Sequence record: MZ726793.1
Length of the DNA: 64,000 bases
Reading direction: 5' to 3' (one strand)
Source of the DNA: Escherichia phage vB_EcoM_ASO2A
The notes under the pieces were generated by a model that saw only the letters and a list, made by a program, of their open reading frames with translations, was not told the DNA's origin and did not search any database. Position numbers and translations under genes: made by a program. This document shows positions 23,443 through 63,014 of this stretch, piece by piece (position 1 is the stretch's first letter; each line of letters starts with the position of its first letter).

Positions 23443-23470
23443 AAAGGCACCCACTTGGGTGCCTTTGTTT
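23443..23470. terminator. bidirectional terminator at the convergence of the plus and minus blocks
   Basis: aaaAGGCACCCacttGGGTGCCTttgtttt. Confidence 0.7.
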
Positions 23471-23742
23471 TATTCTTCGTTAGATTGCGTCTCAGACGCG
23501 TTAAATTCGGTTTCAGTACAACTTGCTAGGTAACTTATATTTTGCATCACTACAACTACAGGTGTTTGAAGTTTATCTTCTAGCCCCGCAGCCACTTGAG
23601 CCAAGGCATTATCAATATTTGATTTCCTAACGCCTGTTCCATGTCCTGTTGCCAAGTAAAGATTACCTTCCCCTTTTTGTGTAGCATTAGCAAAGTAGTA
23701 AACGTAATGTGCAAGGTAGTAATCACGGATTTCTTCAGTCAT
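23470..23742 (-). CDS. hypothetical protein (90 aa)
   Basis: SD aggag. Confidence 0.6.
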   Translation of the reverse strand: MTEEIRDYYLAHYVYYFANATQKGEGNLYLATGHGTGVRKSNIDNALAQVAAGLEDKLQTPVVVVMQNISYLASCTETEFNASETQSNEE

Positions 23743-23751: not shown

Positions 23752-23778
23752 CTAATAAGAAAGGGGCCGAAGCCCCTT
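23752..23778 (-). terminator. hairpin terminator (GGGGCttcgGCCCC type)
   Basis: minus strand aaGGGGCttcgGCCCCtttcttatt. Confidence 0.6.
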
Positions 23779-23785: not shown

Positions 23786-24586
23786 TTATTTGTTTAAGTG
23801 GTCTTCGACCATTTTAATGAAACCTTCATTGCTGAAGGCTGTTGCAGCTTTTTCTCGGTAAACAAAAACTCCACGATCTTCATAGAGAAGTGTTTCTTCG
23901 TAATTAACTCCAGGGTTAACTACAACCATTTTTGTCCCGATATTAAGAGCAGGAAAAAGCTCCCAGTTAAAATTGATAACTTGATTAGAGCAACCCACTA
24001 CAATCACCATATCTTGAGCCGTCAAGCCGTCTAAGATGTGGTACATATCGTTATACAATGGGGCAGTCTCCCCAAAGAACACTACATTGGGCTTCACATA
24101 CTTGTAATCATCCACATCGATAGCAGCATAGCCAACATCTTTGATGATTCTATTGTCTACGATCACTTCAGGCAGGAAGCCGTGAACATGTAGAACATCT
24201 TCATGAACAACACCCGCTTGTTCCAGAAGATCATCTACGTTTGTCGTGATGTTGATAACACGATCACAGCCGTACTCTTGAAACCATTCCGCGATCTGGT
24301 AATGCGCAGCGTTAGGAGACACACTATCCATCTCTACGCGACGTTTATTGTAGAAGTCATGAGTTTTACGGTAGAGGTTGTATCCCTCTGCATCTAATCC
24401 ACCAACAGCGCCAGGAACACACTGTTCTTGCTGGTAGCCAGCACGGAAATTGAAAATGTCACACACTTCAGAAAGGTCGTATTCATCCCACAAAGCTTTA
24501 CCACTTTCTGTGTCAGTGCGGAAAGTACGAATACCGCTATCGGCGCTTAAGCCAGCGCCGCTAATCACTATTAATCGTCTTGGCAT
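23786..24586 (-). CDS. SIR2-family NAD-dependent protein (deacetylase/NADase-like), no zinc ribbon (266 aa)
   Basis: SD gaggagg. ISGAGLSADSGIRTFR, TTNVDDL, LHVHG, KPNVVFFGE. No CxxC pairs between the HG and FGE motifs. Confidence 0.8.
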   Translation of the reverse strand: MPRRLIVISGAGLSADSGIRTFRTDTESGKALWDEYDLSEVCDIFNFRAGYQQEQCVPGAVGGLDAEGYNLYRKTHDFYNKRRVEMDSVSPNAAHYQIAEWFQEYGCDRVINITTNVDDLLEQAGVVHEDVLHVHGFLPEVIVDNRIIKDVGYAAIDVDDYKYVKPNVVFFGETAPLYNDMYHILDGLTAQDMVIVVGCSNQVINFNWELFPALNIGTKMVVVNPGVNYEETLLYEDRGVFVYREKAATAFSNEGFIKMVEDHLNK

Positions 24587-25056
24587 TCTTCCTCCTCAAA
24601 TGGATCATAAGAATCGTACTCGTAAGTATCATCTTCTGAAAATTCTACTTCGAAATAAATATCAAACTCTGCAAACAGACGTAGGATGTTAGACATGCTG
24701 TAATAATTATCGTAGGCAGATTCAGCTTCATAGTAAACATAAAGCAAATGGTTAGCCTTATCATCTTCCAAATATTTCCCGTCTGCATACGCATAGTCTG
24801 CATATGCTTTACCTGCATCTTCCACAAGAGAACGATCAAGCAGAGTAGGAAATGGTTTCTCTTTTTCTTTTAGTTTGCTCACCAACCAATGTGCAATATC
24901 ATTCCATTCTGCATCCATACCACTAAAGCAACTTGCTTCTTCTCCAAAAGAAGCTTCTCCTAAATCGCCACTAATACGAACAACATTAGATGAACTATAG
25001 CCACACGTTTCACAATCAGAGTAACTATTATGCACATTGACATTTACTTGAAACAT
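24571..25056 (-). CDS. hypothetical acidic protein (161 aa)
   Basis: SD taggaggg. Confidence 0.6.
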   Translation of the reverse strand: MFQVNVNVHNSYSDCETCGYSSSNVVRISGDLGEASFGEEASCFSGMDAEWNDIAHWLVSKLKEKEKPFPTLLDRSLVEDAGKAYADYAYADGKYLEDDKANHLLYVYYEAESAYDNYYSMSNILRLFAEFDIYFEVEFSEDDTYEYDSYDPFEEEECQDD

Positions 25057-25072: not shown

Positions 25073-25097
25073 GAAAAGCCCCCTGAAACAGGAGGCT
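25073..25097 (-). terminator. Rho-independent terminator
   Basis: minus strand AGCCTCCTgtttcAGGGGGCT + tttctttt. Confidence 0.55.
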
Positions 25098-25114
25098 TTG
25101 TTCAGATATCGGCA

Positions 25115-25768
25115 CTATACCAGACTTTGAAGGTATTTGTCAAGTGCTTCTTGATCACCTTGACAAACATAGCAACGGAAGTCTTGAGCAGAAGGTTCTT
25201 TGTCCTCGTCCCAATCCCAATAGACAGTACCTTTATAGCGTGAGCCTGGGAACTCGAAGTATGCCACATGAGTAATATGGTGTGGGCCACCCCAAAACTC
25301 TGTAAAAGTAAATTGAGGATACGCTGCTTTAACTGTATTTTCAAACCAAGTTTTACGATCTAATGCTTCGTTTATAAAATAAGCATGGCGTTCCATTTCA
25401 TCCCACGTTTTCCAGACACTTCTCTCATCAGGAGAAAAGACAAGCCATTCTGGAAGGTAGAGAGTGTCATAGTAATCATCATATTCGATCTCGGAGACGC
25501 ACGAAGCTGACTCCTCCAGTTTTGAGTAATCAAAAGCAGAATATACCCACCAACCATCTTCCAGTAACGCTTTGATAGGGACGAAGCCTTTATCAGCATA
25601 TTGATCGAATTGTTTGACACGGTGGCTTGTGCAGTCTTCAAACTCACATTCTAAACGATATGCACCTTTTCGACGAGCCTCAAGACCGTGTGCACTGAAA
25701 ATAACAACACTTCCTTCACCATCATTACGATCTACTTGATAAGCAACTACTTGTTTTGAATTTGACAT
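25115..25768 (-). CDS. hypothetical protein (217 aa)
   Basis: SD taaggag, TAATG overlap. Confidence 0.65.
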   Translation of the reverse strand: MSNSKQVVAYQVDRNDGEGSVVIFSAHGLEARRKGAYRLECEFEDCTSHRVKQFDQYADKGFVPIKALLEDGWWVYSAFDYSKLEESASCVSEIEYDDYYDTLYLPEWLVFSPDERSVWKTWDEMERHAYFINEALDRKTWFENTVKAAYPQFTFTEFWGGPHHITHVAYFEFPGSRYKGTVYWDWDEDKEPSAQDFRCYVCQGDQEALDKYLQSLV

Positions 25769-26451
25769 TATTTCTCCTTATCTAGAAGATTGTTAGACAA
25801 AAACACTGCACGAGCAAAACCACGTGCGGTTAAGGATCTAAGTTGTTTTGTTTTTGCACTAGCTCCACCTAAGCTTTTCCAACCCCAGAAGCAGCCTATA
25901 TGATCTACTGGTTTCTTCACTGGTTGAACAAAACCATTGCCGTGCCAAATACAAGTTTTCTTTGTATACCCATCACGGGTAGGCATTTTAGGATGAAAGC
26001 TTCCTTCCTCTTCAAACAAATACCCACCATACTCATAAGGATCAAAGTAAAAATCGGGTTTACGCCATAAGGTTGAAAGTTTACCTACTGGGTTCTCAAT
26101 CATCCAAGGAACATTATATTTGTTACCCAAAGCTTCCACTACACGAATATTAGCTAAAGCTTCATCTAGTTCCTCTGTGCTACGTTCGTGTTTGCTACCA
26201 CTACCTGCTAACATAGTGCAAGGTGGAAATCCAAAAATAATATCGGGTTTAGGTATCCCATGATCTTCAGGGTTGAATGTAGAATCTATCCAGGCATTCA
26301 CATAGGTTATGTTTGGGTGCTCCATCCTAACCTCGTATTTACCGTGATCCCCTTCATCAGCGTTTACACAAAAACACTTGTGACCTGCTTCGGCATAACG
26401 TAACACCATAATCCCAGATCCGTCAAACATAGACAAAACTGTTTTACTCAT
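25768..26451 (-). CDS. cytosine-C5 methyltransferase-like protein (227 aa)
   Basis: SD ggagggg then ATG 26451. SMFDGSG (motif I-like), GFPPCT (PC motif), IENPVG (ENV-like). Shorter than canonical Dcm enzymes. Confidence 0.5.
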   Translation of the reverse strand: MSKTVLSMFDGSGIMVLRYAEAGHKCFCVNADEGDHGKYEVRMEHPNITYVNAWIDSTFNPEDHGIPKPDIIFGFPPCTMLAGSGSKHERSTEELDEALANIRVVEALGNKYNVPWMIENPVGKLSTLWRKPDFYFDPYEYGGYLFEEEGSFHPKMPTRDGYTKKTCIWHGNGFVQPVKKPVDHIGCFWGWKSLGGASAKTKQLRSLTARGFARAVFLSNNLLDKEK

Positions 26452-26839
26452 TACCCCTCCATTCAAGACAAGCCATAACTTTACGCCAATCACTTTCTGT
26501 AAGAAAAATCTCGTTTGCTTTCTTCCACAAATCTAAATCGTGAAGGGTTGGAATACGATATGTTAGTTCACAGAATCTATGCTCTTCTTCTGTAATATAA
26601 CCAAAATGCAGAGCCACATCGTGAAACCAACACCAACCATGCATCTCTCGAACAACATGGTCATGCTGAGACATTGTTTTATGCCGTAAACCTAACCAAC
26701 AAGGAACAGATACTTTAGTAGTCTTTAATCTGTGATCAACAGTATTAGAGTATTCAATAATAGCTGTCAGTTTCAATCGTGCTTTTTCTAAATCCTCATG
26801 GGTCACTTTGAAATAACTTTCTGAAAGATATCCACACAT
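26444..26839 (-). CDS. hypothetical protein (131 aa)
   Basis: SD aaggagg then ATG 26839 (track start is TTG 26857). Confidence 0.6.
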   Translation of the reverse strand: MCGYLSESYFKVTHEDLEKARLKLTAIIEYSNTVDHRLKTTKVSVPCWLGLRHKTMSQHDHVVREMHGWCWFHDVALHFGYITEEEHRFCELTYRIPTLHDLDLWKKANEIFLTESDWRKVMACLEWRGNE

Positions 26840-26840: not shown

Positions 26841-27782
26841 TTAATAACCTCCTTCAAAAGGCTTAACTACATGTTGATTAGCTTTAAAACGTTCAACATA
26901 GTCGTTTTCGCCCATGTTTTCATATAGCTTAGTAACAACATAAAAGTTTTCCCAAGCATATTCCCTAAACCAACCACTAGTGATGGATGTGCAGACTTTA
27001 GATAAAGCCATTATAAAACTTTGCTTAGGGGTTGGACCTCCGATCTCTTCACCGAAAGGAATTTGTGAACGTTCCAAAGCCAAAACACACGCTTCTTCAT
27101 AAACACCTAACAGGCGCACATGTTTTGGTTGAGCAAAAAACTTTTCTTTGCTGGTCATAACTTCACTTCCATCTTTCATATAAGATTTATATGCTGGAGC
27201 ATCCATTAACGCGATTGCTTCATGGATAGAATCATGATCATAAACATAGGGAACCTCGTCACCTTTAAAGAAGTCTTTACTTTTTACGTTTAAGTTCGGA
27301 TGAGAGTAAGTGTATGTTTCTTTCTCACGTAACTCATAAATACTCTTAAGATTTTCTGGGATCTTTGCGCCCAGTGACCGCATGAAATGAATATCTTTCA
27401 TAGTTTTAAAGAAGTGAGGACTATCCTTTTTAAAACGATGACTCATTTTAAGAAGGTAGAGCACATCTAAAGGAGCAACAACATGTCCAGCGTAAGTTCG
27501 ACGAACATCATCAGAATCTTCACAATAACTAATCAAAGCTTCTGTGCTATCTCCTTGAGAAGCAATATCATATTCCAAATGTGCACCAGCTATCATTTTG
27601 ACGTGGCCTTTGTTCCTTTTACGTTCTACAAGTTCAACAAACTCGTCTTGAGAGAACATTTTTGATAATTCTTCCCACTCTTGTTCTGTACACAGGTAAT
27701 CTAAATCTACACAAGGGCGATACAAGTCTTTTCCCATGTCCATAGCATGAATTTGTAATGCACGGCTACCAATTAACACCAT
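26841..27782 (-). CDS. hypothetical protein (313 aa)
   Basis: SD agaggag; the N-terminal IGSRAL...DLDY faintly resembles a Pol-beta nucleotidyltransferase signature (weak). Confidence 0.65.
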   Translation of the reverse strand: MVLIGSRALQIHAMDMGKDLYRPCVDLDYLCTEQEWEELSKMFSQDEFVELVERKRNKGHVKMIAGAHLEYDIASQGDSTEALISYCEDSDDVRRTYAGHVVAPLDVLYLLKMSHRFKKDSPHFFKTMKDIHFMRSLGAKIPENLKSIYELREKETYTYSHPNLNVKSKDFFKGDEVPYVYDHDSIHEAIALMDAPAYKSYMKDGSEVMTSKEKFFAQPKHVRLLGVYEEACVLALERSQIPFGEEIGGPTPKQSFIMALSKVCTSITSGWFREYAWENFYVVTKLYENMGENDYVERFKANQHVVKPFEGGY

Positions 27783-30194: not shown

Positions 30195-30503
30195 TCAACA
30201 AGTAATTTCAAAAGGTGTATAGGGTTCCGTATTTCTCATAATCCAAGGACTGCTAGGATTGCTCGGATCATAAGGACCAAAAGGTTTTATGGTAGGTTGT
30301 GTTTCTTTCTTCTGAATCTCTTCAAAAATACGACGAAGTTCAGAATATTCTTGATCCACCATAAGATTCGGTGCATCTGATTCTACAGTTTGCAGGTTAT
30401 CTTCCTTAAGAACAATCTCACGAACAAGATTAACATCTTCTGTTTCTAAGATAACTTCTTTACGGATATTACCTACACTTTGAATAATTGTAATTTTATA
30501 CAT
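30195..30503 (-). CDS. hypothetical protein (102 aa)
   Basis: SD tgaggagg, TAATG overlap. Confidence 0.6.
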   Translation of the reverse strand: MYKITIIQSVGNIRKEVILETEDVNLVREIVLKEDNLQTVESDAPNLMVDQEYSELRRIFEEIQKKETQPTIKPFGPYDPSNPSSPWIMRNTEPYTPFEITC

Positions 30504-31246
30504 TAATCCTCCTCAAGAGTTGAATAAAATTGAAGACCACCATCCATATCGAAATAAGCAAATGTTAAGTTATTATTGAACACAGATCCAGTATCCATAT
30601 AAACACGATTCGCATTGATAATAGGTGTTTTTACATAAGAGTGTCCATGAAACACATAATCCACACCCATCACAACAGGAAGTTTCATTCCCTCTTTAGC
30701 ACAGTCTACCATATCTCTGTCCCACATAAGTGCTTCAGCAAAACGGTTTTCCTGTGTTTTTGTCATCTTCGAAATGTATTCTGGAAGATCTGTTACAGGG
30801 AGATATTCCAAAGAAGATGGATACCCACCATGAATAAACGCAAGTTTCATGCCTCTGTAGTTAACAATGAGAACAACAGGTAAATCTTCTGTCATCATTG
30901 CTAAGGCTGTAGCTCCTTCTTCACCACATTCTTCAAATACCGTATATCCTCCATTTTGATACCAACACTCGTAGTAGCTACGATCTCCTTCCAGCATACC
31001 TTTAATCATCATGTCTTCATGATTGCCACGAATAGCGTAGCGATTGTGTTTACGAGTAAATTCTAAAACACAACGAAAGTTTTGCTTTCCACGATCAGTA
31101 AGATCTCCTAAAGATACAACTACATCTGTATCTCGGATACCTAACTTTGCCTTTCCTTTTTCATACAGATTATAACAACCATGTAGATCTCCAATTATAA
31201 AAAGGTCTTGATCGCTTTTAACAGTAATTTCTCTATGTATGATCAC
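30503..31246 (-). CDS. Ser/Thr protein phosphatase (lambda PPase-type metallophosphoesterase)
   Basis: GDLHGC, GDLTDRG, RGNHE, HGG, GH motifs; SD gaggagg then GTG. Confidence 0.9.
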   Translation of the reverse strand: MIIHREITVKSDQDLFIIGDLHGCYNLYEKGKAKLGIRDTDVVVSLGDLTDRGKQNFRCVLEFTRKHNRYAIRGNHEDMMIKGMLEGDRSYYECWYQNGGYTVFEECGEEGATALAMMTEDLPVVLIVNYRGMKLAFIHGGYPSSLEYLPVTDLPEYISKMTKTQENRFAEALMWDRDMVDCAKEGMKLPVVMGVDYVFHGHSYVKTPIINANRVYMDTGSVFNNNLTFAYFDMDGGLQFYSTLEED

Positions 31247-36782: not shown

Positions 36783-37624
36783 TACCTCTCCTTATTAAGT
36801 AATACTGCTAAAGACTGTTCAATACCTTTATTTAAATCTGATTTTGTAAGATAGTGACTGGTTACTAGTTGTGACTTCACCGGACGTGCTGCTGGAGCAT
36901 TATAGGTTGAAGCTGATACCGCCGATATCTTAACAGGTTCTGGCATCTGTGTCAAGATCTTTTCCGCAAACTCCGCCCAAGAAATAAGATGGCTTCCTGC
37001 AAAATGGTAAGTCTTAACAGACCTTGACCAACCTGTTTTTAATACTTCAAAAATAGCTTCTGCTAAATCTGGAGCATATGTTGGACAAGAGAACTGATCA
37101 GCAACAATAATAAAATCACGTTGTCCATCATTATAGCGAGACAACATGGTTTTTAGAAAGTTATTTCCAAATTCGCTATATACCGAGGCTGTTCGAATAA
37201 TATATGCATTTGGGTTAACTCCTCGCACCATTTTTTCACCAAGTTCTTTCGTATACCCATAATTGTTTATTGGGTTAGGTGTAGTATCTTCAAAAATAGG
37301 ATGAGAATAATTAAAAATATAGTCTGTAGAAATATGCACAAAATCAATTTTAAGTTTGCTGCACACTGCCGCAATATTTGCAGGTCCATACGCATTAACA
37401 GCCAAAGCAGTAGCAAAATCATGTTCTGCTTTATCTACAGCCGTATAAGCGGCGCAATTAATAACACCATCTACATAATCTTCAATAATAGCGTTTCGCA
37501 CAGCTTCAAAATTTGTAATATCTACACGTTCTTTAGGATAAATTAAAGATACATTTGAAGGAGCCACTTTACGTAAAGCTTGTCCCAGTTGTCCATTACC
37601 GCCCAATACCAGATATGTTAGCAT
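36782..37624 (-). CDS. rmlD: dTDP-4-dehydrorhamnose reductase
   Basis: LVLGGNGQLGQAL Rossmann N-terminus, 280 aa, position after rmlC, overlapping start. Confidence 0.9.
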   Translation of the reverse strand: MLTYLVLGGNGQLGQALRKVAPSNVSLIYPKERVDITNFEAVRNAIIEDYVDGVINCAAYTAVDKAEHDFATALAVNAYGPANIAAVCSKLKIDFVHISTDYIFNYSHPIFEDTTPNPINNYGYTKELGEKMVRGVNPNAYIIRTASVYSEFGNNFLKTMLSRYNDGQRDFIIVADQFSCPTYAPDLAEAIFEVLKTGWSRSVKTYHFAGSHLISWAEFAEKILTQMPEPVKISAVSASTYNAPAARPVKSQLVTSHYLTKSDLNKGIEQSLAVLLNKER

Positions 37625-38184
37625 ACACCCTCGCTACGTAACTGTTGAAAAGATTTAGCCATTGCATCTTTTGTTGATAGAATAGGTTTAAAACCTTCGT
37701 CAAAAATCATATCGAAGCCCCAATCGATCCCTATATCAGGATCATCCCAACGTAAACTTTGTTCACTAGAAGGGTCGTATGGAGTTGTGCATTTGTATTC
37801 AAAGATAGCATCCATACTCAAAACTATAAAACCATGAGCCAAACCAGGCGGAAGCCAAAACTGCGTATGGTGTCGTGCACGAAGAACAACACCGTCCCAA
37901 GCACCGTAAGTTGGACTATCTTTACGTAAATCTACAGCGAAATCCAATACTTCCCCACTTACACAACGAACTAGCTTACCTTGCGGGTTATTTGTTTGAA
38001 AGTGCATTCCTCGCAAAACACCGAAGTTTGATTTAGACATGTTATCTTGAACGAAAGTTTGTCTACCAATAATATCTTCGTATTTTTGTTCATTATATGT
38101 TTCTAGAAAGAAACCACGATCATCTTTATAAACGTCTGGTTTGATAATTACCGCACCTTCAATTTTTGTTTTTTCTACTTTCAT
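37618..38184 (-). CDS. rmlC: dTDP-4-dehydrorhamnose 3,5-epimerase
   Basis: start ATG 38184 (ATGA overlap with the rmlA stop); [50 protein letters not shown]. Confidence 0.9.
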
Positions 38185-39059
38185 TTTCTCTCCGCTAATT
38201 TGAGTAGGTATTGCCCGTACTCTGTTTTCTTCAGTGAGTTTCCATGATACACCAAAGTCTCTAAAGAAATCCACCCTTTTTTGAAAGCAATTTCTTCCAG
38301 GCACGCAATCTTCAATCCTTGACAGTTCTCAATAGTCTGCACGAATTGACCAGCTTCCATCAGACTGGCGTGTGTTCCTGTGTCAAGCCAAGTAAATCCT
38401 CGTCCGAGAACTTCCACTTGTAACTTCCTGTCTTCTAGGTAGCTGCGATTGATATCAGTGATCTCCAGTTCTCCACGCGCGGAAGGGGTTACTTCTAATG
38501 CACGTTGAATAACAGAGTTATCATAGAAATACAAACCTGTGACAGCATAATCTGATTTAGGATTTTCAGGTTTCTCTTCAATAGAAATAGCTTGACGATT
38601 ACTCCCAAATTCAACCACACCGAATCGTTCAGGATCTTTCACCAAATACCCGAAAATACAAGCTCCGCCCCAAACATCTACCATCTCACTGGCGTTAATC
38701 AGTAGTTTACCAAAGCTTTGTCCGAAGAATAGGTTGTCACCTAAAATAAGAGCAACAGAGTCTTCTCCGATAAAATCTTTACCTATGATGAAAGCTTCCG
38801 CAAGACCTCGTGGCTCGGATTGGATTGCGTAAGTGAGTTTTATCCCAAACATAGACCCATCTCCGAGAAGATACTCAAAGTCTTCCTGATCACCTGGTGT
38901 GGTGATGATTAAAATATCCTTAATGTCAGCCAACATCAATACCGATAAAGGGTAGTAGATCATGGGTTTGTCATACACAGGGAGCAATTGCTTGCTCACA
39001 CTGCGTGTTACCGGATGAAGGCGGGTTCCGCTTCCTCCCGCCAAAATAATACCTTTCAT
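38181..39059 (-). CDS. rmlA: glucose-1-phosphate thymidylyltransferase
   Basis: [37 protein letters not shown]. Confidence 0.95.
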
Positions 39060-39067
39060 AACCCTCC

Positions 39068-40060
39068 TTAAATTTTCTCACTCCACCATTGAGGGTTGTT
39101 TAAGTACCATTCAATCGTTGAGTAGAGATCTTGTTCAAATGTAGAGTTTGCACTCCAGCCCAGTTCAGACTCTATCTTAGAAGGATTGATTTCATAACGC
39201 AAGTCATGTCCTTTACGATCTTCAACAAAAGTTATCAAGTTGGAAGAAGGGTAGGTTACTGCTTCTGGATGTACAGTATCCATATAGTCACAAACCATAT
39301 AGATGATCTCCATATTGGTTTTGGGATTACGTGTTCCAACATTATACGTTTGACCTGGTTCTCCACCTGTTGCCACTTGAAGAATAGCTCGCGCATGATC
39401 CTCAACAAAAAGCCAGTCTCGCACCTGGTCGCCTTTACCATACACCGGAATCTCTTTATTCGTCAAGATACTTGTGATGATTTTTGGGATCAGCTTTTCT
39501 GGATGTTGATAAGGCCCAAAGTTATTGGAGCAGTTGGTTATCACAACAGGCAAATCGTAGGTGCGGTGCCAAGCTTTCACAAGATGGTCAGATGCCGCCT
39601 TAGACGCACTGTATGGGCTTGAAGGGGCATAAGCTGTCTCTTCGGTAAAAGGAACGCCAGAGTCTGCCATATCGCCGTACACTTCGTCTGTGGAGACGTG
39701 TACGAACATCTTCAGTTTATTTTTTGGGAGGAGCCTTGCAGCTTCCAATAAATTGTATGTACCAATAATATTGGAGTCAATGAAAACTCGTGGATTCTTG
39801 ATAGAATTATCCACATGACTCTCTGCCGCTAAGTGAATGATGAAATCGGGATTGCACTCTACTACTAAACTTTTGACCTGGGTTTCGTTTGCCAAATCTG
39901 TCATGCTTAGTTTAATGTGAGTGATATCGCCTACATTCTCAATATCTGCTGCATAGCCCATCTTATCAACGACAAAAACTTCGTTATTAGGATCTTGACA
40001 AAGAGAGCGCACCACGGCACTCCCAATAAAACCAAGACCACCTGTTACCAGATAGCGCAT
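39068..40060 (-). CDS. rmlB: dTDP-glucose 4,6-dehydratase
   Basis: [30 protein letters not shown]. Confidence 0.95.
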
Positions 40061-40069
40061 CAGTTCTCC

Positions 40070-40396
40070 TTACCAGACATGTTGAGAAATAATAGTTTCC
40101 GTTTTAATGTTATATTTTTCAAGTAGTTTTGCATAGGCTTCTTTTGCATTCTCATTCAATTGCTCAAGATCTACAGCTATGCTTCCCTCTCCGCCTTCTA
40201 AATCAAGGCCATATATGCAATAAGACTCATCCGCATCGTAGAAAGGAGAGATGCGGCTTAAGTCCAGACCTTCTTGTAAGAACCAGTTAAAATCTCCATC
40301 AAATTCTTCTTCAATTCTAGGATCTTCTCCTACAGCCTCTTCCCATTTATTAAAAGGTGCACCCTGTAACATACGCCATGCAATATCAACTCCCAC
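40070..40396 (-). CDS. hypothetical acidic protein (108 aa)
   Basis: GTG start; overlaps the end of the upstream mini-ORF. Confidence 0.5.
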   Translation of the reverse strand: MGVDIAWRMLQGAPFNKWEEAVGEDPRIEEEFDGDFNWFLQEGLDLSRISPFYDADESYCIYGLDLEGGEGSIAVDLEQLNENAKEAYAKLLEKYNIKTETIISQHVW

Positions 40397-51803: not shown

Positions 51804-52529
51804 TTACTTGTTAATAATACCTGCAATATTAGGTTTGACAAAGGTCGATGGTTTCATGATCTTACCTTTATCATCAAAGAACACATACACTTTCTGTTTT
51901 TCATTATAAACAGCATGAACACCAGTGTATGCCCCTTCTGGACGATTGGCATTTCGTTCTTCAATTGCAGCGCATTCTTGTGCAATGGCTGAATCGATAT
52001 CCGAAGTTTTCCAAGTTTTCAGCAACTGTTGTTTAGTTGGATACTTGGAATCATTACTTTTCAATACCTCTTTAATAACTTTCTTTTCTGGATATTTTGA
52101 ACGGATTAGAGTGTCACGAGACATACGCATAATACCAGCAGCCATTAGTGCCATTTGAACTGGCTCTGTAAATGTTTGTTCCAAAGCATCAAAATCAGTA
52201 TACACAGTTGGAGTAAAAACATCGCCTACAGCATAGTCCAAGAAATTCATCGTATGTTCTTCACCAAAGAACATGTAAGTCAGATAACTGGATACTACAA
52301 AAATATCCGCTGCTGCATCCAAGAGTTCTACATGATCGTTTACTTTCGCGGCTGTTTCATACTCTTTAAGCTCTTCACGAACGAACCCGATTTGGGACAT
52401 AAATAACTCTTGAGTGAATTCAGGTTGTTCACCACCTCGTGCTTTGGCATTCCAATCAATTACGTGCTTTGCTGCATTTTTGAAAAATTCAGTATCGAAT
52501 TTAATATCTTTAAAAAAATTCTCGATCAT
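51804..52529 (-). CDS. MazG-like all-alpha NTP pyrophosphohydrolase (241 aa)
   Basis: REELKEYETAAKVNDHVELLDAAADI fits an ExxE...ExxD signature. Confidence 0.45.
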   Translation of the reverse strand: MIENFFKDIKFDTEFFKNAAKHVIDWNAKARGGEQPEFTQELFMSQIGFVREELKEYETAAKVNDHVELLDAAADIFVVSSYLTYMFFGEEHTMNFLDYAVGDVFTPTVYTDFDALEQTFTEPVQMALMAAGIMRMSRDTLIRSKYPEKKVIKEVLKSNDSKYPTKQQLLKTWKTSDIDSAIAQECAAIEERNANRPEGAYTGVHAVYNEKQKVYVFFDDKGKIMKPSTFVKPNIAGIINK

Positions 52530-52538
52530 TATAACTCC

Positions 52539-52721
52539 TTATTTAAAATAGCTTTCTAGAAAGTTGCTAATATTTACTACAGACTCACCCATGTAAATCC
52601 CTGCGAAACCGAAAACAAGCATACGTGGAATATTGAAATACCATTTATCTGCCGGAAAAGATGCCAGAATTACAATAGCAATTGCTATCAACATCATAAG
52701 AATTGTTGCTAAAATTATCAT
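52539..52721 (-). CDS. small membrane protein (60 aa)
   Basis: SD tggagg; two hydrophobic helices. Confidence 0.55.
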   Translation of the reverse strand: MIILATILMMLIAIAIVILASFPADKWYFNIPRMLVFGFAGIYMGESVVNISNFLESYFK

Positions 52722-52774
52722 AAAAATGCCTCCAGGTATTTTTCACAATGATAAGCTAAGAACATTTTTCCTCC

Positions 52775-53890
52775 TTATTCTGCTGGTTCCCAAGTGCCTG
52801 GGATCATTTCTCGAATACGAACACCAACAGGTTTTGTTGGAATACCTTCATCTGAAAATTCTTCATACTCTATTTCAACGAACTGATTAATCAAGGTAGA
52901 AGCATTCTCTGCTTTACGATAATTGATAGTCTCATGAGCATCTTTACGCATTAAGAATTCGACTACTTTACCATTTTCCATCTCGCCTGTCAACACTCCA
53001 TCACCATTTTTATCACTTTTTGAATTTATTACTTTAACTTCAAGCGTATGACGAGGCTTACGTTTAATAACATCATAAGAACGTTTATCAAATTCGTAAA
53101 CTCCGTGAGCATTACGATATACTACACCTTCAGCTTTCTCAAGTAAAGCTTTTTCATAGAAAGCATCAAACTGTTCTTGGTTTTCAATATACTCTGTATG
53201 AACTACACAAATAAGCTCATCAAGACCATAATCCTCCACTACTGCCTTAAGAGCAGTAAGAACATCAACACGTTTTTCAAACGGTAGATCTGGAACTGGA
53301 ATATCGTATACGTAATAGTTCAGCAAAGGTGTATTTGCATTATGCTTCTTCCAGGCACTGTTAATTTGTTGTAGACTAAGGACACCTAACCCAGCAAACA
53401 CTTCACCATCAAGAGGATGACCAACAACTTCACTAATAAAGTTTGGAATACCTTTCCAATGAGGTGGCAGGTTATACACTTCCCCAGCTTTTGATAAACA
53501 CTCCCCTTTCATGTTAATCATAGAACGTAACCCGTTCAGTTTGTATTGTGCATAACCAGGGAACACAACCCTTTCAGGATAATCTTTATAATCCTGGCAT
53601 TTCATTGGTGTGGAAGGAACATGGTTTTCAGCTTCTTCTTTTGTTTTATAATAGCCATTCTTTAACTGTTTTGTCCATTTGGCAAAAGCTTCAAGTTCAG
53701 CTTGTTCTTCCGGTGTTGTTTCATTGGAACGACCAATGTTTTTTGCTTCTGCTGTATAAGATTTTTCTGTGATTTTTCCACCTACCCTTCCATGAGCTAC
53801 AGTAACAACTGCACCATCTGTATACACTGTCCACTGTTTAAGTTTTCCTTTTGAATCTTTACCATACAGCGTTTGATTTGTTTGTTGCAT
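52775..53890 (-). CDS. ATP-dependent DNA ligase (371 aa)
   Basis: start ATG 53890 (TAATG overlap, GGAGGA upstream). QYKLNGLR (motif I with N for D), LDGEVF (III), YYVYD, AEGVVYR (IV), VIKRKP (V). Confidence 0.8.
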   Translation of the reverse strand: MQQTNQTLYGKDSKGKLKQWTVYTDGAVVTVAHGRVGGKITEKSYTAEAKNIGRSNETTPEEQAELEAFAKWTKQLKNGYYKTKEEAENHVPSTPMKCQDYKDYPERVVFPGYAQYKLNGLRSMINMKGECLSKAGEVYNLPPHWKGIPNFISEVVGHPLDGEVFAGLGVLSLQQINSAWKKHNANTPLLNYYVYDIPVPDLPFEKRVDVLTALKAVVEDYGLDELICVVHTEYIENQEQFDAFYEKALLEKAEGVVYRNAHGVYEFDKRSYDVIKRKPRHTLEVKVINSKSDKNGDGVLTGEMENGKVVEFLMRKDAHETINYRKAENASTLINQFVEIEYEEFSDEGIPTKPVGVRIREMIPGTWEPAE

Positions 53891-54111
53891 TAGTCCTCCC
53901 ATTTAAAAACTGAAATTTTCAATCTGTTACACACTTCATCCAAATCTGCGTCGAGTAACGTTGTAGATGTTGCCAACATATAATCAATGCTTGTGAAACC
54001 TTGCCCTTTGGCATAGTCAAACATATCTTCATACATATCTTCAAGATCACCGTCATCAAAAGTAGCTAGAAAATCCTCGTCCCCACTACGAACATAAAAT
54101 GCAGTACTCAT
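53890..54111 (-). CDS. hypothetical acidic protein (73 aa)
   Basis: ATGA overlap. Confidence 0.5.
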   Translation of the reverse strand: MSTAFYVRSGDEDFLATFDDGDLEDMYEDMFDYAKGQGFTSIDYMLATSTTLLDADLDEVCNRLKISVFKWED

Positions 54112-54296
54112 TCATCTTCATCCCAAGATTCAAAAACGCAGCAATCATCGGTTTCTATAATACCAACACGTCCGCAGGTATTGCAAGTGATTTTATCACC
54201 GTAGAATAAATAATTTTTATCACCCTCTGTGTTTACAGAGATTTCATGACTGCCACAAGGACAAGTCAGCCAATCAACAACGATATCTTTTTTCAT
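54108..54296 (-). CDS. zinc-ribbon protein (62 aa)
   Basis: SD taaggaggg; CPCG ... CNTCG. Confidence 0.55.
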   Translation of the reverse strand: MKKDIVVDWLTCPCGSHEISVNTEGDKNYLFYGDKITCNTCGRVGIIETDDCCVFESWDEDE

Positions 54297-54305
54297 AATC
54301 CCTCC

Positions 54306-54632
54306 TTAAGCGTTCAGTTCGTTGTTGAGTTCGTAAATCTCTTCTTGAAGAGCATCAATCTCTTCCTCCAAACGGGAGATCTCTTCTTTTAGATATACCA
54401 TTTCTGATTCTTTCTCTTCTAACTCATTTTCAAATTTTACTTTATTCGCCTCATTTTCATAATGGAGTTCAGCGTAATCATCGCGCATTTGTTCAATAAG
54501 ATGAATCAGAGACAAGATGTAATTATCTCCCGTTTCATCACGCCATTCTTCACCGTGGCGGAGAACGGTAATTCGTCCAGTATCTTCATCTAAAATTGTC
54601 TCATATTTACGATCATCTGTATAAATCTGCAT
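54306..54632 (-). CDS. hypothetical coiled-coil protein (108 aa)
   Basis: SD taaggag. Confidence 0.55.
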   Translation of the reverse strand: MQIYTDDRKYETILDEDTGRITVLRHGEEWRDETGDNYILSLIHLIEQMRDDYAELHYENEANKVKFENELEEKESEMVYLKEEISRLEEEIDALQEEIYELNNELNA

Positions 54633-54641
54633 TATTACTCC

Positions 54642-55046
54642 TTATTGAAGTTTAAGTGAACCACGAAGACGTTTCTCTTGCTGATCACGAATATATTGTG
54701 GAACCTCGTGAATTGAATCATTACCGTGCCTATTTTCAACAACTAAAGAGATAACTTGATAACCAAACTCTTCAGCAAGAGTTAGATAAGGTTTAAGTTC
54801 TTTCTCTGTGGTTGAAGTGTTAGAAACAATAATCTTGTTAAGATTAGATGCCATAGCATCACGAACAATACTCTGACACCATGCGTGTGCTTTACCTACG
54901 TTTTCTGGCTTCCAATCGTAAACACCACTTTCTGTGTAATGATATTGATCTGCCTCACAGATAGGCCAATAACCTTCAGAAATAATTTCTGCTACTGTAG
55001 ATTTACCAGCACCTGAAACGCCACGTAAAATGATAAGTTGTTTCAT
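54642..55046 (-). CDS. P-loop polynucleotide 5'-kinase-like protein (T4 Pnk kinase-domain-like, 134 aa)
   Basis: LILRGVSGAGKST, EADQYH, IIVSNTSTTEKELKPYLTLAEEFGYQV parallels T4 Pnk [45 protein letters not shown]. Confidence 0.6.
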   Translation of the reverse strand: MKQLIILRGVSGAGKSTVAEIISEGYWPICEADQYHYTESGVYDWKPENVGKAHAWCQSIVRDAMASNLNKIIVSNTSTTEKELKPYLTLAEEFGYQVISLVVENRHGNDSIHEVPQYIRDQQEKRLRGSLKLQ

Positions 55047-55979
55047 TTATCCTCCAAAGAAGTTTTCGATTTTTTCACGTCGCTCCTGCTGATTTAAAGC
55101 AGCCCATTGAGTCTTCGTAAAATTATTTCGAATCCATTCTAACAAAGCGTAATATTCTTCGTCAACAATTTGTTTGGCATTTTTTGGATTATCCCAAATC
55201 AGATCCCACTTTTTATCTCCACCACGCATAAGAAACTTCTTAGTAAGATAGTGTGGTGATTTAATTTTTAAAAGTAAGTTGAACGGATAGTTTGTTTCAC
55301 GAACTACAAATCCTTCGTGTTTACAATGTTTAGACATTTCAACAACATCTGAAAACTTAACCATTGGATGAACTTCAGGACGCTTAAATTTGGTGACAGA
55401 AGCAATTCCATCAAGAGCACCTTCAGGTAACATAAAACTTGTCCCATCAGGATTTTGAATTCTGGCACCAATTAAGTATGCACCTGGTTCTTCTTCGACA
55501 ATATGCGGATCAGAAGGATCACAGATTTCAAAAAGGAAAGTTGCTTTTGCACTCTCTATCCATTTGATGAAATGTTCTATGTCATCACACTCTGAAATAA
55601 TATGATTCTTTGCAATACTTGCAAAATCTGATTCAAGGCTTCCTGTTGTCGATACAATAAGTTGACCTTTATATACACCTACAGAGGCCATAAAACCATT
55701 TACTTTACGAACCACATCTACAAATTCATCCGCTGGTAGATCTGTGCCATTCTCAAAACGATTAAAAATCTTAGTGAAAGGCCAAATAACAACATTGTCA
55801 TCATCGTCAACAACGATTCCGCGACATTCTAGAAGACGAGAATCAATGTTCCACAGGTTATCCCAGAAAACTTTGTTCTTATACTTAAGAACAGATAGAC
55901 CAGAATACTCTCCTTCTTTATATGTTTTCTTATGAACTAAACCTTTTTCAACCAAATCGTCGCAATTAAATTTAGCCAC
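55047..55979 (-). CDS. Rnl1-type RNA ligase (310 aa)
   Basis: LECRGIVV and PFTKIFNRFE parallel T4 Rnl1 LECRGIMF/PMEKFFNLNE; RKVNGFM as the nucleotidyl-lysine motif; GTG start after aaggagag. Confidence 0.7.
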   Translation of the reverse strand: MAKFNCDDLVEKGLVHKKTYKEGEYSGLSVLKYKNKVFWDNLWNIDSRLLECRGIVVDDDDNVVIWPFTKIFNRFENGTDLPADEFVDVVRKVNGFMASVGVYKGQLIVSTTGSLESDFASIAKNHIISECDDIEHFIKWIESAKATFLFEICDPSDPHIVEEEPGAYLIGARIQNPDGTSFMLPEGALDGIASVTKFKRPEVHPMVKFSDVVEMSKHCKHEGFVVRETNYPFNLLLKIKSPHYLTKKFLMRGGDKKWDLIWDNPKNAKQIVDEEYYALLEWIRNNFTKTQWAALNQQERREKIENFFGG

Positions 55980-55980
55980 A

Positions 55981-56532
55981 TTACTCTCCTTTGATTATTT
56001 TGTGATGGTCTACAGTTACGATATCTCGTTTACTCATCATAGAAATTATCTCATCAAAATGTAAGATTTTTCCGTGTGCATCCCAACCCACATCTAACAT
56101 TTTACCATAAGCTTCATCAGGGAAAGATCCGTGGGAATGCCCGTGTAGCATGATTGATCCACGACCTTGCTTATTCCAGGAGGCCATAGGGTAATGGCTT
56201 AAGACGAAGAACAGCTTCTGATATTTCACTTCGTCATAATACACCACTTCTCCATACTCTGCAAGCACTTCTCGGTGTTTGCTGTAATCATGGTTCCCAA
56301 CACAATAAGTGATATCCCCTTGGAGGCGGGAAGCAATCTTACGGGTATCTTCTTCAGTCCCGAAACAGAAGTCACCCAAATGCCACATCTTGACACCTGG
56401 ACTCGTAGCGCATTTATTCCATGCTTCGATCAGTGCTTCTGTCATGTGGTCCATATCTTCCCACGGTCGATATTCAGGAGCAAACTCTCGTATACGTTTG
56501 TGCATAAAATGCAAATCACTTGTAATAAACAT
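55981..56532 (-). CDS. calcineurin-type metallophosphoesterase (183 aa)
   Basis: SDLHFMH, LGDF, VGNHD, LHGHSHG. Confidence 0.8.
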   Translation of the reverse strand: MFITSDLHFMHKRIREFAPEYRPWEDMDHMTEALIEAWNKCATSPGVKMWHLGDFCFGTEEDTRKIASRLQGDITYCVGNHDYSKHREVLAEYGEVVYYDEVKYQKLFFVLSHYPMASWNKQGRGSIMLHGHSHGSFPDEAYGKMLDVGWDAHGKILHFDEIISMMSKRDIVTVDHHKIIKGE

Positions 56533-56888
56533 TAGTATAATCCCTCGCTAAATAGGTCACGATCATGACCATTACGTTCGTAGTCAATCTGGTCTGCGTG
56601 TTTTGCAATAATGTATGCATCTTCACGACTCCACCAATTGTAGTATTGATCAATAAAACCTTGATTGTTTGGAAGACAATGCACTTTATCAAGCACACCT
56701 GCTTCTTTCAATACATTCAATTGTGCTGATAATATAGGATTTGCATGTCGAACACAAGGAATAATTAACTCTTCACCATTTTTCAGAATATATTTATTCG
56801 CAGCACAGACGATAACACGTTGCGCATAATGACCCTCACCAATCCAGGTAAGAGGTTGGTAACAAATATTGTTTTCAATACCACTCAT
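56532..56888 (-). CDS. hypothetical protein (118 aa)
   Basis: coupled to the downstream gene (TAATG). Confidence 0.55.
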   Translation of the reverse strand: MSGIENNICYQPLTWIGEGHYAQRVIVCAANKYILKNGEELIIPCVRHANPILSAQLNVLKEAGVLDKVHCLPNNQGFIDQYYNWWSREDAYIIAKHADQIDYERNGHDRDLFSEGLY

Positions 56889-56894
56889 TGTTTC

Positions 56895-57038
56895 CTAATC
56901 CTCCTCTCTTAAGTTATCCTCGATAAAACTAGTATCTGGAAGTAAAAGATCATTACTTGTGTCGGGCCAATCCTCTTCTTCTCGGTAGATAAAATAACCT
57001 TCGTCCTCTTCTTGTTCCGACCAAACCGAATGATGCAT
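56895..57038 (-). CDS. 47-aa acidic peptide
   Basis: not in track; SD aaggagag; MHHSVWSEQEEDEGYFIYREEEDW... Confidence 0.4.
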   Translation of the reverse strand: MHHSVWSEQEEDEGYFIYREEEDWPDTSNDLLLPDTSFIEDNLREED

Positions 57039-57047
57039 GTTCTCTCC

Positions 57048-57404
57048 TTAATAGTGCACACGAATCATTTTAATACCATAACGCAGCATGGATTCTTTTG
57101 CAAGCATGAATTTATCCCCAGCGGCTGGATTAGAAGTATGCACGAAAATGGTAGGTGAACCAAAGCAAGGTTTACCAAACGCCAGAAGTTCTTCCAGGCA
57201 CAGGAAAACATCATACCCATCTTGGTCAGAATCTTCACCCAAATCGTTGTCAAAATGCCACTCGTCTACAAAACGATAACCCTTCTGCACCTCATTCATG
57301 TAGCGAGAGGCAAGAAGTTCCTGTGATGTTTTAAACCAGATTGCATCTGGACAACCATAATCTTTTGGATCACGTAAATCATCAAGCCAAATAATAGTAC
57401 CCAT
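57048..57404 (-). CDS. receiver-like domain protein, possibly the cyclic-phosphate-processing REC family seen in RNA-repair loci (118 aa)
   Basis: IIWLDDLRDP, WHFDNDLGE, VHTSNPAAG; assignment from memory of the motif pattern only. Confidence 0.3.
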   Translation of the reverse strand: MGTIIWLDDLRDPKDYGCPDAIWFKTSQELLASRYMNEVQKGYRFVDEWHFDNDLGEDSDQDGYDVFLCLEELLAFGKPCFGSPTIFVHTSNPAAGDKFMLAKESMLRYGIKMIRVHY

Positions 57405-61231: not shown

Positions 61232-61233
61232 AC

Positions 61234-61308: not shown

Positions 61309-61309
61309 G

Positions 61310-61492: not shown

Positions 61493-61503
61493 TTAAAAAA
61501 CTA

Positions 61504-61533: not shown

Positions 61534-61541
61534 ATAAGTAT

Positions 61542-63012: not shown

Positions 63013-63014
63013 GT

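What the first reader, a model, noticed from the sequence alone, without database searches (positions are those of the whole stretch)
23786..24586. Phage-encoded SIR2-family protein lacking the zinc-ribbon module
The NAD-binding and catalytic motifs are intact (GAGLSADSGIRTFR, TTNVDDL, HVHG, VVFFGE). However, the segment between the HG and FGE motifs has no cysteine pairs, so the canonical Sir2 zinc module appears to be absent. Bacterial defence systems use SIR2 domains as NADases. A virus-borne SIR2 at the 3' end of the long metabolic operon could instead manipulate host NAD+/acyl-lysine or ADP-ribosylation, or could counteract NAD-depleting defences. The flanking genes (23470-23742, 24571-25056, 25115-25768) are uncharacterised.
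Basis: partly seen in the sequence, partly recalled or inferred. Interest (0 to 1): 0.5.

Follow-up and report, generated by a model that had tools for sequence, protein, structure and literature searches.

The report
Known phage sirtuin, zinc ligands lost
This is the already-annotated Sir2-like gene of phAPEC8-type E. coli phages, part of a phage-only branch of CobB/SIRT5-like sirtuins that lost its zinc-binding cysteines; both the gene and the zinc loss are in the literature, but its real substrate has never been tested.

Summary
ORF 23786-24586 (-) encodes a 266-aa SIR2-family protein (Pfam PF02146, E=3e-20) with all four quoted motifs. It has no Cys or His between HG and FGE.

The zinc module is not deleted. 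A 28-residue relic (residues 137-164) aligns with the CxxC...CxxC ribbons of relatives and is modelled as a beta-hairpin.

The window is a Phapecoctavirus genome, 99.9% identical to phage PNJ1809-36. The gene is phAPEC8 gp197, "Sir2-like", PHROG 2162. More than 1000 GenBank phage records hold relatives, and cellular genomes hold almost none.

Both main points are published. Skliros 2016 reported zinc-ligand loss in phage Sir2/CobB. Iyer 2022 defined this phage clade and predicted a KptA-like RNA-repair role.

I confirmed that linkage in T5-like, rV5/Mydo-like and one jumbo-phage locus. In this window the cREC, kinase and RNA-ligase cassette is present but lies 30 kb away.

Nothing supports an anti-NAD-depletion role. 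The gene is already known; only its biochemistry is open.

The parts
23786..24586 (-). Sir2-like sirtuin gene, 266 aa (orthologue of phAPEC8 gp197)
24518..24559 (-). GAGLSADSGIRTFR, the NAD-binding / cofactor-binding loop (residues 10-23)
   Evidence: Translation; G10, A11, G12, S14, S17, F22 and R23 are invariant in 60 clade members
24341..24352 (-). Y79-N-K-R82, equivalent to CobB Y92/R95 (the class III anion-recognition pair)
   Evidence: HMMER alignment to CobB 6rxj/1s5p; invariant in the clade; Y..R kept in 113 of 156 wider relatives
24227..24247 (-). TTNVDDL (residues 114-120); canonical TQN[IV]D with Gln replaced by Thr
   Evidence: T115 co-varies with loss of the four Cys: 49 relatives have 0 Cys with T, and 67 have 4 Cys with Q
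24179..24190 (-). HVHG with catalytic His135
   Evidence: His is present in 156 of 156 relatives
24095..24178 (-). Relic of the zinc ribbon (residues 137-164): no Cys or His, first knuckle substituted, second knuckle deleted
   Evidence: alignment with CxxC...CxxC relatives; beta-hairpin at high pLDDT
24068..24085 (-). VVFFGE (residues 168-173)
   Evidence: F170, F171 and E173 invariant
24591..24597 (-). Shine-Dalgarno GAGGAGG, 4 nt upstream of the sir2 ATG and inside the upstream gene
   Evidence: sequence TTTGAGGAGGAAGAATG
24571..25056 (-). 161-aa acidic protein (pI 4.05, phrog_9509); overlaps the sir2 start by 16 nt; conserved CxxC plus a third Cys; found only in close relatives
25075..25143 (-). 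Terminator-like hairpin (25099-25075) and promoter-like site (25143-25114, 11 of 12 matches) that open the two-gene unit
   Evidence: consensus matches only
23761..23778 (-). Terminator-like hairpin directly after the sir2 stop codon
   Evidence: sequence
23470..23742 (-). 90-aa ORF of unknown function (phrog_15991), last gene of the leftward block; a bidirectional terminator follows at 23443-23466
25768..26493 (-). C5-methyltransferase-like protein (phrog_757); kept next to or near sir2 in more distant loci L041, L049 and L052
57048..57404 (-). cREC (cyclic-phosphate processing receiver) protein, part of the RNA-repair cassette
   Evidence: Pfam PF20274 E=1.6e-13; 59% identical to the sir2-linked cREC of rV5/Mydo-like locus L016
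55981..56532 (-). Calcineurin-like metallophosphoesterase in the cassette
55047..55979 (-). T4 Rnl1-type RNA ligase in the cassette
   Evidence: Pfam PF09511 E=2.7e-15; 58% identical to the L016 ligase
54642..55046 (-). P-loop nucleotide / polynucleotide kinase-like protein in the cassette
   Evidence: Pfam AAA_33 E=4e-10; 74% identical to the L016 kinase, which lies about 230 nt from sir2 there
52775..53902 (-). ATP-dependent DNA ligase; in rV5/Mydo-like phages this is the gene immediately after sir2
51804..52529 (-). MazG-like pyrophosphohydrolase

Best explanation
The gene encodes an active NAD+-consuming sirtuin from a phage-restricted clade that derives from CobB/SIRT5-like (class III) sirtuins. 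It cleaves nicotinamide from NAD+ and transfers ADP-ribose onto an anionic oxygen nucleophile. Tyr79 and Arg82 would hold that nucleophile, and His135 would act as the base that activates the ribose 2''-OH. The most likely acceptor is a 2'-phosphate left on phage or host RNA (tRNA) during repair. In that pathway cREC or a phosphoesterase opens the 2',3'-cyclic phosphate, the P-loop kinase phosphorylates the 5'-OH, and the Rnl1-type ligase seals the break. The sirtuin then removes the junction 2'-phosphate as ADP-ribose 1''-2'' cyclic phosphate, as Tpt1/KptA does. Shown here: the fold, the motifs, the loss of zinc ligands, the phage-only distribution, the gene linkage in related phages, and the presence of the cassette in this window. 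Inferred: the substrate and every chemical step. This is the prediction of Iyer et al. 2022, not a new idea.
For: All NAD-binding and catalytic residues are invariant across 60 clade members. The model is confident and sirtuin-like. Y79/R82 align with the CobB Y92/R95 anion-binding pair and are invariant. In 40 of 58 loci an RNA-repair-type gene lies within about 2 kb of sir2. T5-like phages carry HAD_SAK_2 (PF18143, E=3.7e-19), median 160 nt downstream. rV5/Mydo-like phages have the order metallophosphoesterase, RNA ligase, cREC, kinase, one small gene, SIR2, DNA ligase. A jumbo-phage locus has an Rnl1 ligase two genes upstream. The same cassette is intact in this window at 51.8-57.4 kb on the same strand. 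The cysteine loss, Q-to-T in TQN, GTS-to-GCS and a changed loop after it (VINFNWELFP) are clade-specific departures at or near the substrate cleft of deacylase sirtuins. KptA homologues occur in 98 phage records; the ten commonest genera listed (95 of the 98 records) include no Escherichia or Salmonella phage, and three further genera were not shown. The cassette-bearing coliphages therefore appear to lack a Tpt1 of their own. The published prediction is PMC9503650.
Against: No biochemistry exists for any member. In this phage lineage sirtuin and cassette are 30 kb apart, and the sirtuin sits in its own small transcription unit. The linkage argument is therefore borrowed from relatives. The 40 of 58 loci come from only two or three phage lineages, so the number of independent observations is small. 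The clade is acidic (pI about 5, this protein 4.63), which is unusual for an RNA-binding enzyme. T4-type healing by Pnkp leaves no 2'-phosphate, and E. coli has its own KptA. The closest structures are all protein deacylases.
Confidence: 0.4

Rival explanations
1. It is an ordinary class III protein lysine deacylase (deacetylase or desuccinylase, like CobB). It acts on host or phage proteins to retune metabolism during infection, for example by activating acetyl-CoA synthetase as proposed for Vibrio phage sirtuins. The zinc ribbon is simply stabilised by packing instead of metal.
For: The best sequence and structure matches are CobB, SIRT5 and Sir2Af. The cofactor loop GAGxSxxSGIRTFR and the Y-x-x-R pair needed for CobB/SIRT5 desuccinylation are kept. 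The FGE strand and catalytic His are intact. This is the standing annotation in more than 100 genomes and the proposal of PMC5107563.
Against: The zinc module is reported to be required for deacetylation by canonical sirtuins (PMC12700824), and all four ligands are gone here. The conserved Gln of TQN is Thr, and the GTS and following substrate-side loop are altered. All NCBIfam CobB-type models score far below their cut-offs (98 against 243, 81 against 320). The host already has CobB. Recurrent linkage to RNA-end-processing genes is unexplained by this model.
Confidence: 0.35
2. It is an ADP-ribosyltransferase or NAD+ glycohydrolase acting on another target (protein, DNA or a small molecule). 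In Phapecoctavirus it may have been re-wired to the neighbouring C5-methyltransferase-like gene and the Cys-containing acidic 161-aa partner.
Against: There is no macrodomain or other partner typical of SirTM systems. The 161-aa partner is confined to close relatives. Synteny among related phages may be inheritance rather than function. The neighbours have no informative homologues.
Confidence: 0.15
3. It is an anti-defence factor that counters NAD+-depleting immunity (Thoeris, DSR, SIR2-HerA), or a phage-borne defence NADase.
For: The only support is the general theme of SIR2 domains in phage-host conflict.
Confidence: 0.05

Closest known systems
Phage sirtuin clade (PHROG 2162; the 'distinct clade of sirtuin proteins' of Iyer, Burroughs, Anantharaman & Aravind 2022, PMC9503650; phAPEC8 gp197 and the rV5, PVP-SE1 and T5 Sir2-like proteins)
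   Same: Full-length match to PHROG 2162 (E=6.6e-102). It is 54-99% identical to members in Phapecoctavirus, T5-like, rV5/Mydo-like and other phages. It has the same motif set and the same lack of zinc ligands.
   Different: In this lineage the gene is not adjacent to the RNA ligase / cREC / kinase cassette. It lies 30 kb downstream, next to an MTase-like gene and lineage-specific ORFs.
E. coli CobB / human SIRT5 (class III sirtuins)
   Same: Best PDB sequence hits (E=1e-15). Foldseek TM 0.84 normalised to CobB. The cofactor loop, catalytic His, N116/D118, the FGE strand and the Y-x-x-R pair are shared.
   Different: No zinc ligands, and a ribbon about 8 residues shorter. Also TTN instead of TQN, GCS instead of GTS, an altered loop after it, a variable 22-residue insertion in the helical subdomain, and an acidic pI. 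It falls below all NCBIfam CobB cut-offs.
Sir2/CobB of Vibrio schizoT4-like phages (phiSt2, phiGrn1, KVP40; Skliros et al. 2016, PMC5107563)
   Same: Phage-encoded CobB-like sirtuins reported in silico to lack the zinc ligand in the finger domain. That paper lists T5 and other phages as carrying homologues.
   Different: They belong to a different phage family. The paper proposed deacetylation and ACS activation, and did not analyse Phapecoctavirus.
Tpt1/KptA RNA 2'-phosphotransferase
   Same: Proposed functional analogue only. It is NAD+-dependent, attacks C1'' with an anionic oxygen, and then uses the ribose 2''-OH. It works with RNA ligase / kinase / CPDase healing-sealing enzymes.
   Different: The fold is unrelated and there is no sequence similarity, so this is not a family member. 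KptA homologues occur in other phages, mainly jumbo Erwinia, Dickeya and Klebsiella phages.
Defence SIR2 domains (ThsA, DSR1/2, SIR2-HerA, Avs5; Pfam SIR2_2)
   Same: A Rossmann-type NAD-binding core and absence of a zinc site.

Membership tests
SIR2/sirtuin superfamily (Pfam PF02146) | Profile match above the curated threshold | tested here: met
   73.3 bits against a cut-off of 24, E=3e-20
SIR2/sirtuin superfamily (Pfam PF02146) | Rossmann fold with GAGxS, catalytic His in the HG motif, and the Asn and Asp of the xxN[IV]D motif | tested here: met
Canonical (deacylase-type) sirtuins | Zinc ribbon with two CxxC pairs between HG and FGE | tested here: not met
   No Cys or His in residues 137-164. 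No conserved Cys there in 60 clade members. A ligand-less beta-hairpin relic remains.
Canonical (deacylase-type) sirtuins | Gln of the TQN[IV]D motif | tested here: not met
   Thr115. Among relatives, 49 of 156 combine 0 Cys with T, and 67 of 156 combine 4 Cys with Q.
Class III sirtuins (CobB/SIRT5) | Y-x-x-R pair that binds acidic acyl groups | tested here: met
   Y79/R82 align with CobB Y92/R95 and are invariant in the clade.
Class III sirtuins (CobB/SIRT5) | NCBIfam CobB equivalog or subfamily score above the curated cut-off | tested here: not met
   98.3 against 243, 81.2 against 320, 73.2 against 318
Class III sirtuins (CobB/SIRT5) | NAD+-dependent lysine deacetylase / desuccinylase activity | not testable with these tools
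   Needs an enzyme assay
Phage sirtuin clade (PHROG 2162 / Iyer 2022) | Full-length profile match and phage-restricted distribution | tested here: met
   E=6.6e-102. All named sources among the top 120 homologues are phages, apart from two hypothetical-protein entries filed under E. coli and Salmonella enterica (P0005, P0051), and the long contigs are phage-sized. There are 57 IMG/VR loci and 1022 GenBank phage records for a relative. Only 6 weak loci (43% identity or less) turned up in 185,579 species genomes.
Phage sirtuin clade (PHROG 2162 / Iyer 2022) | Gene-neighbourhood linkage to RNA-end-processing genes (RNA ligase, cREC, kinase, HAD_SAK, MazG) | tested here: inconclusive
   Met in 40 of 58 related loci. 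In this window the cassette exists but is 30 kb from sir2.
Defence SIR2 (ThsA/DSR/SIR2-HerA; SIR2_2) | Match to defence-system models, fused or partner sensor, and the SIR2_2-type fold | tested here: not met
Tpt1/KptA | KptA fold or sequence; RNA 2'-phosphotransferase activity | not tested
   No homology is expected, and only a functional analogy is proposed.

The most novel reading that the evidence does not exclude
The zinc-less phage sirtuins are the first sirtuins that act on nucleic acid. They would be Tpt1-analogous RNA 2'-phosphotransferases that complete a Trl1-like tRNA repair pathway (cREC, kinase and Rnl1 ligase) used by large coliphages against host anticodon nucleases. Loss of the zinc ribbon and the TQN-to-TTN change would be the sequence signature of the substrate switch. 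This was predicted computationally in 2022 and has never been tested.
Probability: 0.35. Interest if true: 0.7.

Novelty: already known. Interest (0 to 1): 0.25.

Why it matters
As a discovery it matters little. The gene, its family, its phage-specific clade, the missing zinc ligands and a mechanistic hypothesis are all already published or annotated. It has value as an experimental target. More than 1000 sequenced phages, including T5 and therapeutic rV5- and phAPEC8-type coliphages, carry an uncharacterised NAD+-consuming enzyme. A simple assay comparing acyl-lysine peptides with 2'-phosphate RNA would settle whether a sirtuin can replace Tpt1 in RNA repair. That result would extend sirtuin chemistry to nucleic acids and clarify how phages survive tRNA-cleaving defences.

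Tried and rejected
- **NAD-salvage or anti-depletion context.** phAPEC8 annotation for 11.7-65 kb and 100-147.7 kb shows no NAMPT, NMNAT or NARP genes. Two oddly annotated candidates (gp043, gp042) and several window ORFs have no Pfam hit. I did not inspect 1-11.7 kb or 65-100 kb.
- **161-aa upstream protein as a conserved partner.** It is present only in close relatives, 6 of 58 loci, so it is not a clade-wide partner.
- **Neighbours against PDB sequences.** Nothing informative. The MTase-like protein has only a weak match to M.HaeIII, E=0.089.
- **Footprint of sir2 excision between kinase and DNA ligase.** The small genes that flank sir2 in rV5/Mydo-like loci have no homologue in the window.
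- **Cellular members of the clade.** Only 6 weak loci, mostly MAG contigs.
- **Literature on phAPEC8, rV5 or T5 Sir2 biochemistry.** None found.
- **Monophyly of the zinc-less state.** A neighbour-joining tree that excluded the ribbon columns places the query in an all-zinc-less clade of 30. It needs 8 state changes overall, and the rooting is uncertain. I claim only that the trait is clustered and derived relative to canonical sirtuins.

Full report
**1. The observation**

The minus-strand ORF 23786..24586 starts at an ATG and encodes 266 aa. A consensus Shine-Dalgarno sequence, GAGGAGG, lies 4 nt upstream.

All four quoted motifs are present at the stated places:
- GAGLSADSGIRTFR, residues 10-23
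- TTNVDDL, residues 114-120
- HVHG, residues 133-136
- VVFFGE, residues 168-173

The match to the family is far beyond chance. Pfam SIR2 gives E=3e-20, 73.3 bits against a gathering score of 24. PHROG 2162, "Sir2 (NAD-dependent deacetylase)", gives E=6.6e-102 over the full length.

The 28 residues between HG and the strand leading into FGE are FLPEVIVDNRIIKDVGYAAIDVDDYKYV. They contain no Cys and no His. The protein's four Cys are at positions 42, 56, 107 and 199.

**2. Where the window comes from**

The region is 99.9% identical to Escherichia phage PNJ1809-36 and 94% identical to phAPEC8. Both belong to Stephanstirmvirinae, genus Phapecoctavirus. In all, 126 phage records match at the DNA level.

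In phAPEC8 the gene is gp197. It is annotated "putative Sir2-like protein" or "Sir2 (NAD-dependent deacetylase)", with a note that rV5 and PVP-SE1 have the same gene. The protein is therefore already annotated.

**3. Is the zinc module absent?**

The loss of ligands is clade-wide. Across 60 homologues down to 54% identity, no Cys is conserved in this segment.

A search of 1.84 billion representative proteins found 1692 relatives. In an alignment of 156 of them, 67 combine four Cys (CxxC...CxxC) with a canonical TQN[IV]D motif. Another 49 combine zero Cys with TTN.

The two kinds align through a shared frame: HG-x-L-x-E...(D)[IV]GY...KPNV-FFGE. In the query the first knuckle is substituted and the second (CPxCG) is deleted. 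The segment is about 8 residues shorter than in the CxxC relatives.

AlphaFold2, run on a 60-sequence alignment, gave mean pLDDT 90.9 and pTM 0.88. It models residues 136-143 and 147-150 as a beta-hairpin at pLDDT 93-95. The module is therefore a ligand-less relic, not a deletion.

I built a neighbour-joining tree without the ribbon columns. It places the query inside a 30-member clade that is entirely zinc-less. The trait needs 8 changes over the 156 sequences. Since all canonical sirtuins have the zinc site, the loss is derived and may have happened more than once.

**4. What kind of SIR2 it is**

- Sequence hits in the PDB are led by E. coli CobB (E=1e-15), then Sir2Af2 and SIRT5.
- The Foldseek top 50 are all canonical sirtuins. 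CobB scores TM 0.84 normalised to the target.
- PADLOC has no credible match.

Using the CobB alignment and the mutant names of the 6rx* PDB entries, query Y79 and R82 correspond to CobB Y92 and R95. This is the class III pair that binds acidic acyl groups. Both residues are invariant in the clade.

The protein nevertheless fails every NCBIfam CobB-type cut-off, for example 98 bits against 243. It also carries clade-specific changes: Thr for the Gln of TQN, GCS for GTS, and an altered VINFNWELFP loop. The clade is acidic, with a median pI of about 5.

**5. Distribution**

All named sources among the best 120 homologues are phages, apart from two hypothetical-protein entries filed under E. coli and Salmonella enterica. 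Long contigs among the hits are phage-sized, about 105-153 kb.

IMG/VR holds 57 loci. They are T5-like, rV5/Mydo-like, Stephanstirmvirinae-like and jumbo phages. A CxxC-bearing relative finds 1022 GenBank phage records.

A scan of one genome for each of 185,579 prokaryotic species found only 6 weak loci, at most 43% identical and mostly MAG contigs. The clade is essentially phage-only.

**6. What the literature already says**

- Skliros et al. 2016 (PMC5107563) modelled the Sir2/CobB of Vibrio phages phiSt2 and phiGrn1. [quoted passage not shown] KVP40". They listed T5 and other phages as carriers and proposed deacetylation of host enzymes.
- Iyer et al. 2022 (PMC9503650) found that most viral sirtuins form a distinct clade. 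In V5/Mydo-type phages it is linked to T4-like RNA ligase, cREC, a nucleotide kinase, MazG and calcineurin-like phosphoesterase. In SP15 (T5-like) phages it is linked to a "Swiss-army-knife" HAD phosphatase. In jumbo phages it is linked to 2H, Nudix, cREC and PIN domains. They proposed a KptA-like removal of RNA 2'-phosphates.
- The FAM118 paper (PMC12700824) states that the zinc module is required for deacetylation by canonical sirtuins.

I found no biochemical study of any phage sirtuin.

**7. Testing the linkage here**

I called and clustered ORFs in the 57 loci plus the window.

- In 28 T5-like loci, a HAD_SAK_2 protein (PF18143, E=3.7e-19) lies a median 160 nt downstream of sir2.
- In 11-12 rV5/Mydo-like loci the order is metallophosphoesterase, RNA ligase, cREC, P-loop kinase, one small gene, SIR2, then ATP-dependent DNA ligase and later MazG.
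- One jumbo-phage locus has an Rnl1-type ligase two genes upstream.

Overall, 40 of 58 loci have such a neighbour within about 2 kb. These come from only two or three lineages.

In the window the whole cassette is present on the same strand, but 30 kb upstream in transcription terms:

| Gene | Coordinates (minus strand) |
|---|---|
| cREC | 57404..57048 |
| metallophosphoesterase | 56532..55981 |
| Rnl1-type RNA ligase | 55979..55047 |
| P-loop kinase | 55046..54642 |
| ATP-dependent DNA ligase | 53902..52775 |
| MazG-like | 52529..51804 |

In this lineage sir2 instead follows a different set of genes:
- a DUF7277/DUF7275 protein (27782..26841);
- a 137-aa ORF;
- a C5-methyltransferase-like protein (26493..25768);
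- a 217-aa ORF;
- a 161-aa acidic protein whose last 16 nt overlap the sir2 start.

Terminator-like hairpins at 25099-25075 and 23778-23761 and a promoter-like site at 25143-25114 bracket the pair formed by the 161-aa gene and sir2. These are consensus matches only.

The 161-aa partner occurs only in close relatives. The block of MTase-like gene, 217-aa gene and sir2 persists in loci with only 49-55% Sir2 identity.

**8. Mechanism**

Three things are shown: an intact NAD-binding and nicotinamide-cleaving active site, an anion-binding Tyr/Arg pair, and a remodelled substrate side without zinc. The substrate itself is inferred.

I rank the readings as follows.

1. **Tpt1-like RNA 2'-phosphate removal within the phage RNA-repair pathway (0.40).** Only this reading has clade-specific evidence, namely recurrent linkage and the cassette's presence here. 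KptA homologues appear in 98 phage records; no Escherichia or Salmonella phage is among the ten commonest genera listed, which cover 95 of the 98 records.
2. **Ordinary class III protein deacylase (0.35).** Fold closeness and the Y-x-x-R pair support it. The lost zinc site, the altered motifs and the sub-threshold CobB model scores count against it.
3. **Another ADP-ribosyl transfer or NADase role, possibly with the local neighbours (0.15).**
4. **Anti-defence, or counter to NAD depletion (0.05).** A sirtuin consumes NAD+. No salvage genes were seen in the inspected parts of the genome, and there is no resemblance to defence SIR2 proteins.

**9. Novelty and verdict**

The gene, its family assignment, the phage-specific clade, the loss of zinc ligands in phage sirtuins and a specific functional hypothesis are all already public.
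- The ribbon is a trimmed relic rather than a deletion.
- Cysteine loss co-varies with the TQN-to-TTN change.
- Phapecoctavirus has uncoupled sir2 from the RNA-repair cassette, which it still carries.

I score it as already known, with interest 0.25. The only open and interesting question is biochemical: whether this is a sirtuin that acts on RNA.

Noticed in passing
window 51804-57404 (-): A complete RNA-healing and sealing cassette: cREC, calcineurin-like phosphoesterase, T4 Rnl1-type RNA ligase, P-loop kinase, ATP-dependent DNA ligase and MazG-like protein. The cREC, phosphoesterase, RNA ligase and kinase are labelled only 'hypothetical protein' in the phAPEC8 RefSeq record.
   Followed up: yes
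window 24571-25056 (-): A 161-aa very acidic protein (pI 4.05) with three conserved Cys (DCETCG...ASC). Its end overlaps the sir2 start, and the sir2 Shine-Dalgarno sequence lies inside it. It occurs only in Stephanstirmvirinae-like phages. A possible metal-binding partner or regulator; function unknown.
   Followed up: partly
window 25768-26493 (-): A 241-aa protein of phrog_757 ('DNA methyltransferase') with FDGSG and GFPPC motifs resembling C5-cytosine methyltransferases. It has no Pfam hit and only a weak M.HaeIII match (E=0.089). It stays next to or near sir2 in distant loci L041, L049 and L052.
   Followed up: partly
window 26841-27782 (-): A 313-aa DUF7277 + DUF7275 protein (Pfam E=1e-75). 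Its N-terminus (LIGSRA...VDLDYL) looks like a minimal nucleotidyltransferase G-S...D-x-D signature. This is my reading of the sequence and was not tested.
   Followed up: no
window 23443-23466: A perfect 10-bp GC-rich hairpin with T-runs on both strands, marking the convergence point of the rightward and leftward gene blocks (a bidirectional terminator).
   Followed up: no
window 61157-63169 (+): A cluster of 10 tRNA genes (Met, Arg, Ser, Asn, Thr, Gly, Gln, Pro, Ile, Met). They are potential clients of the RNA-repair cassette just upstream.
   Followed up: partly
window about 36800-40100 (-), from phAPEC8 gp166-gp169: A phage-encoded dTDP-rhamnose-type pathway (glucose-1-phosphate thymidylyltransferase, dTDP-4-dehydrorhamnose 3,5-epimerase and two nucleotide-sugar epimerases). 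This is unusual cargo that might serve DNA or surface glycan modification.
   Followed up: no
window 30503-31246 (-): A second calcineurin-like phosphoesterase (NinI-like, Pfam E=2.4e-13), about 6 kb upstream of sir2 in the same leftward block.
   Followed up: partly
Sir2 residues about 48-70 (window about 24377-24445): A variable insertion of about 22 residues in the helical small subdomain. It is present in phAPEC8- and T5-like members and absent from Mydo-like and some other members. Cys42 just before it is conserved in 133 of 156 wider relatives.
   Followed up: partly
L057 6713-7198 (jumbo phage contig, 279 kb): In this jumbo phage the sirtuin (with 4 Cys and TQN) is followed directly by a nucleoside 2-deoxyribosyltransferase-like protein (PF15891, E=1e-33). 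This is a different NAD/nucleotide-related neighbour from those in the other lineages.
   Followed up: no
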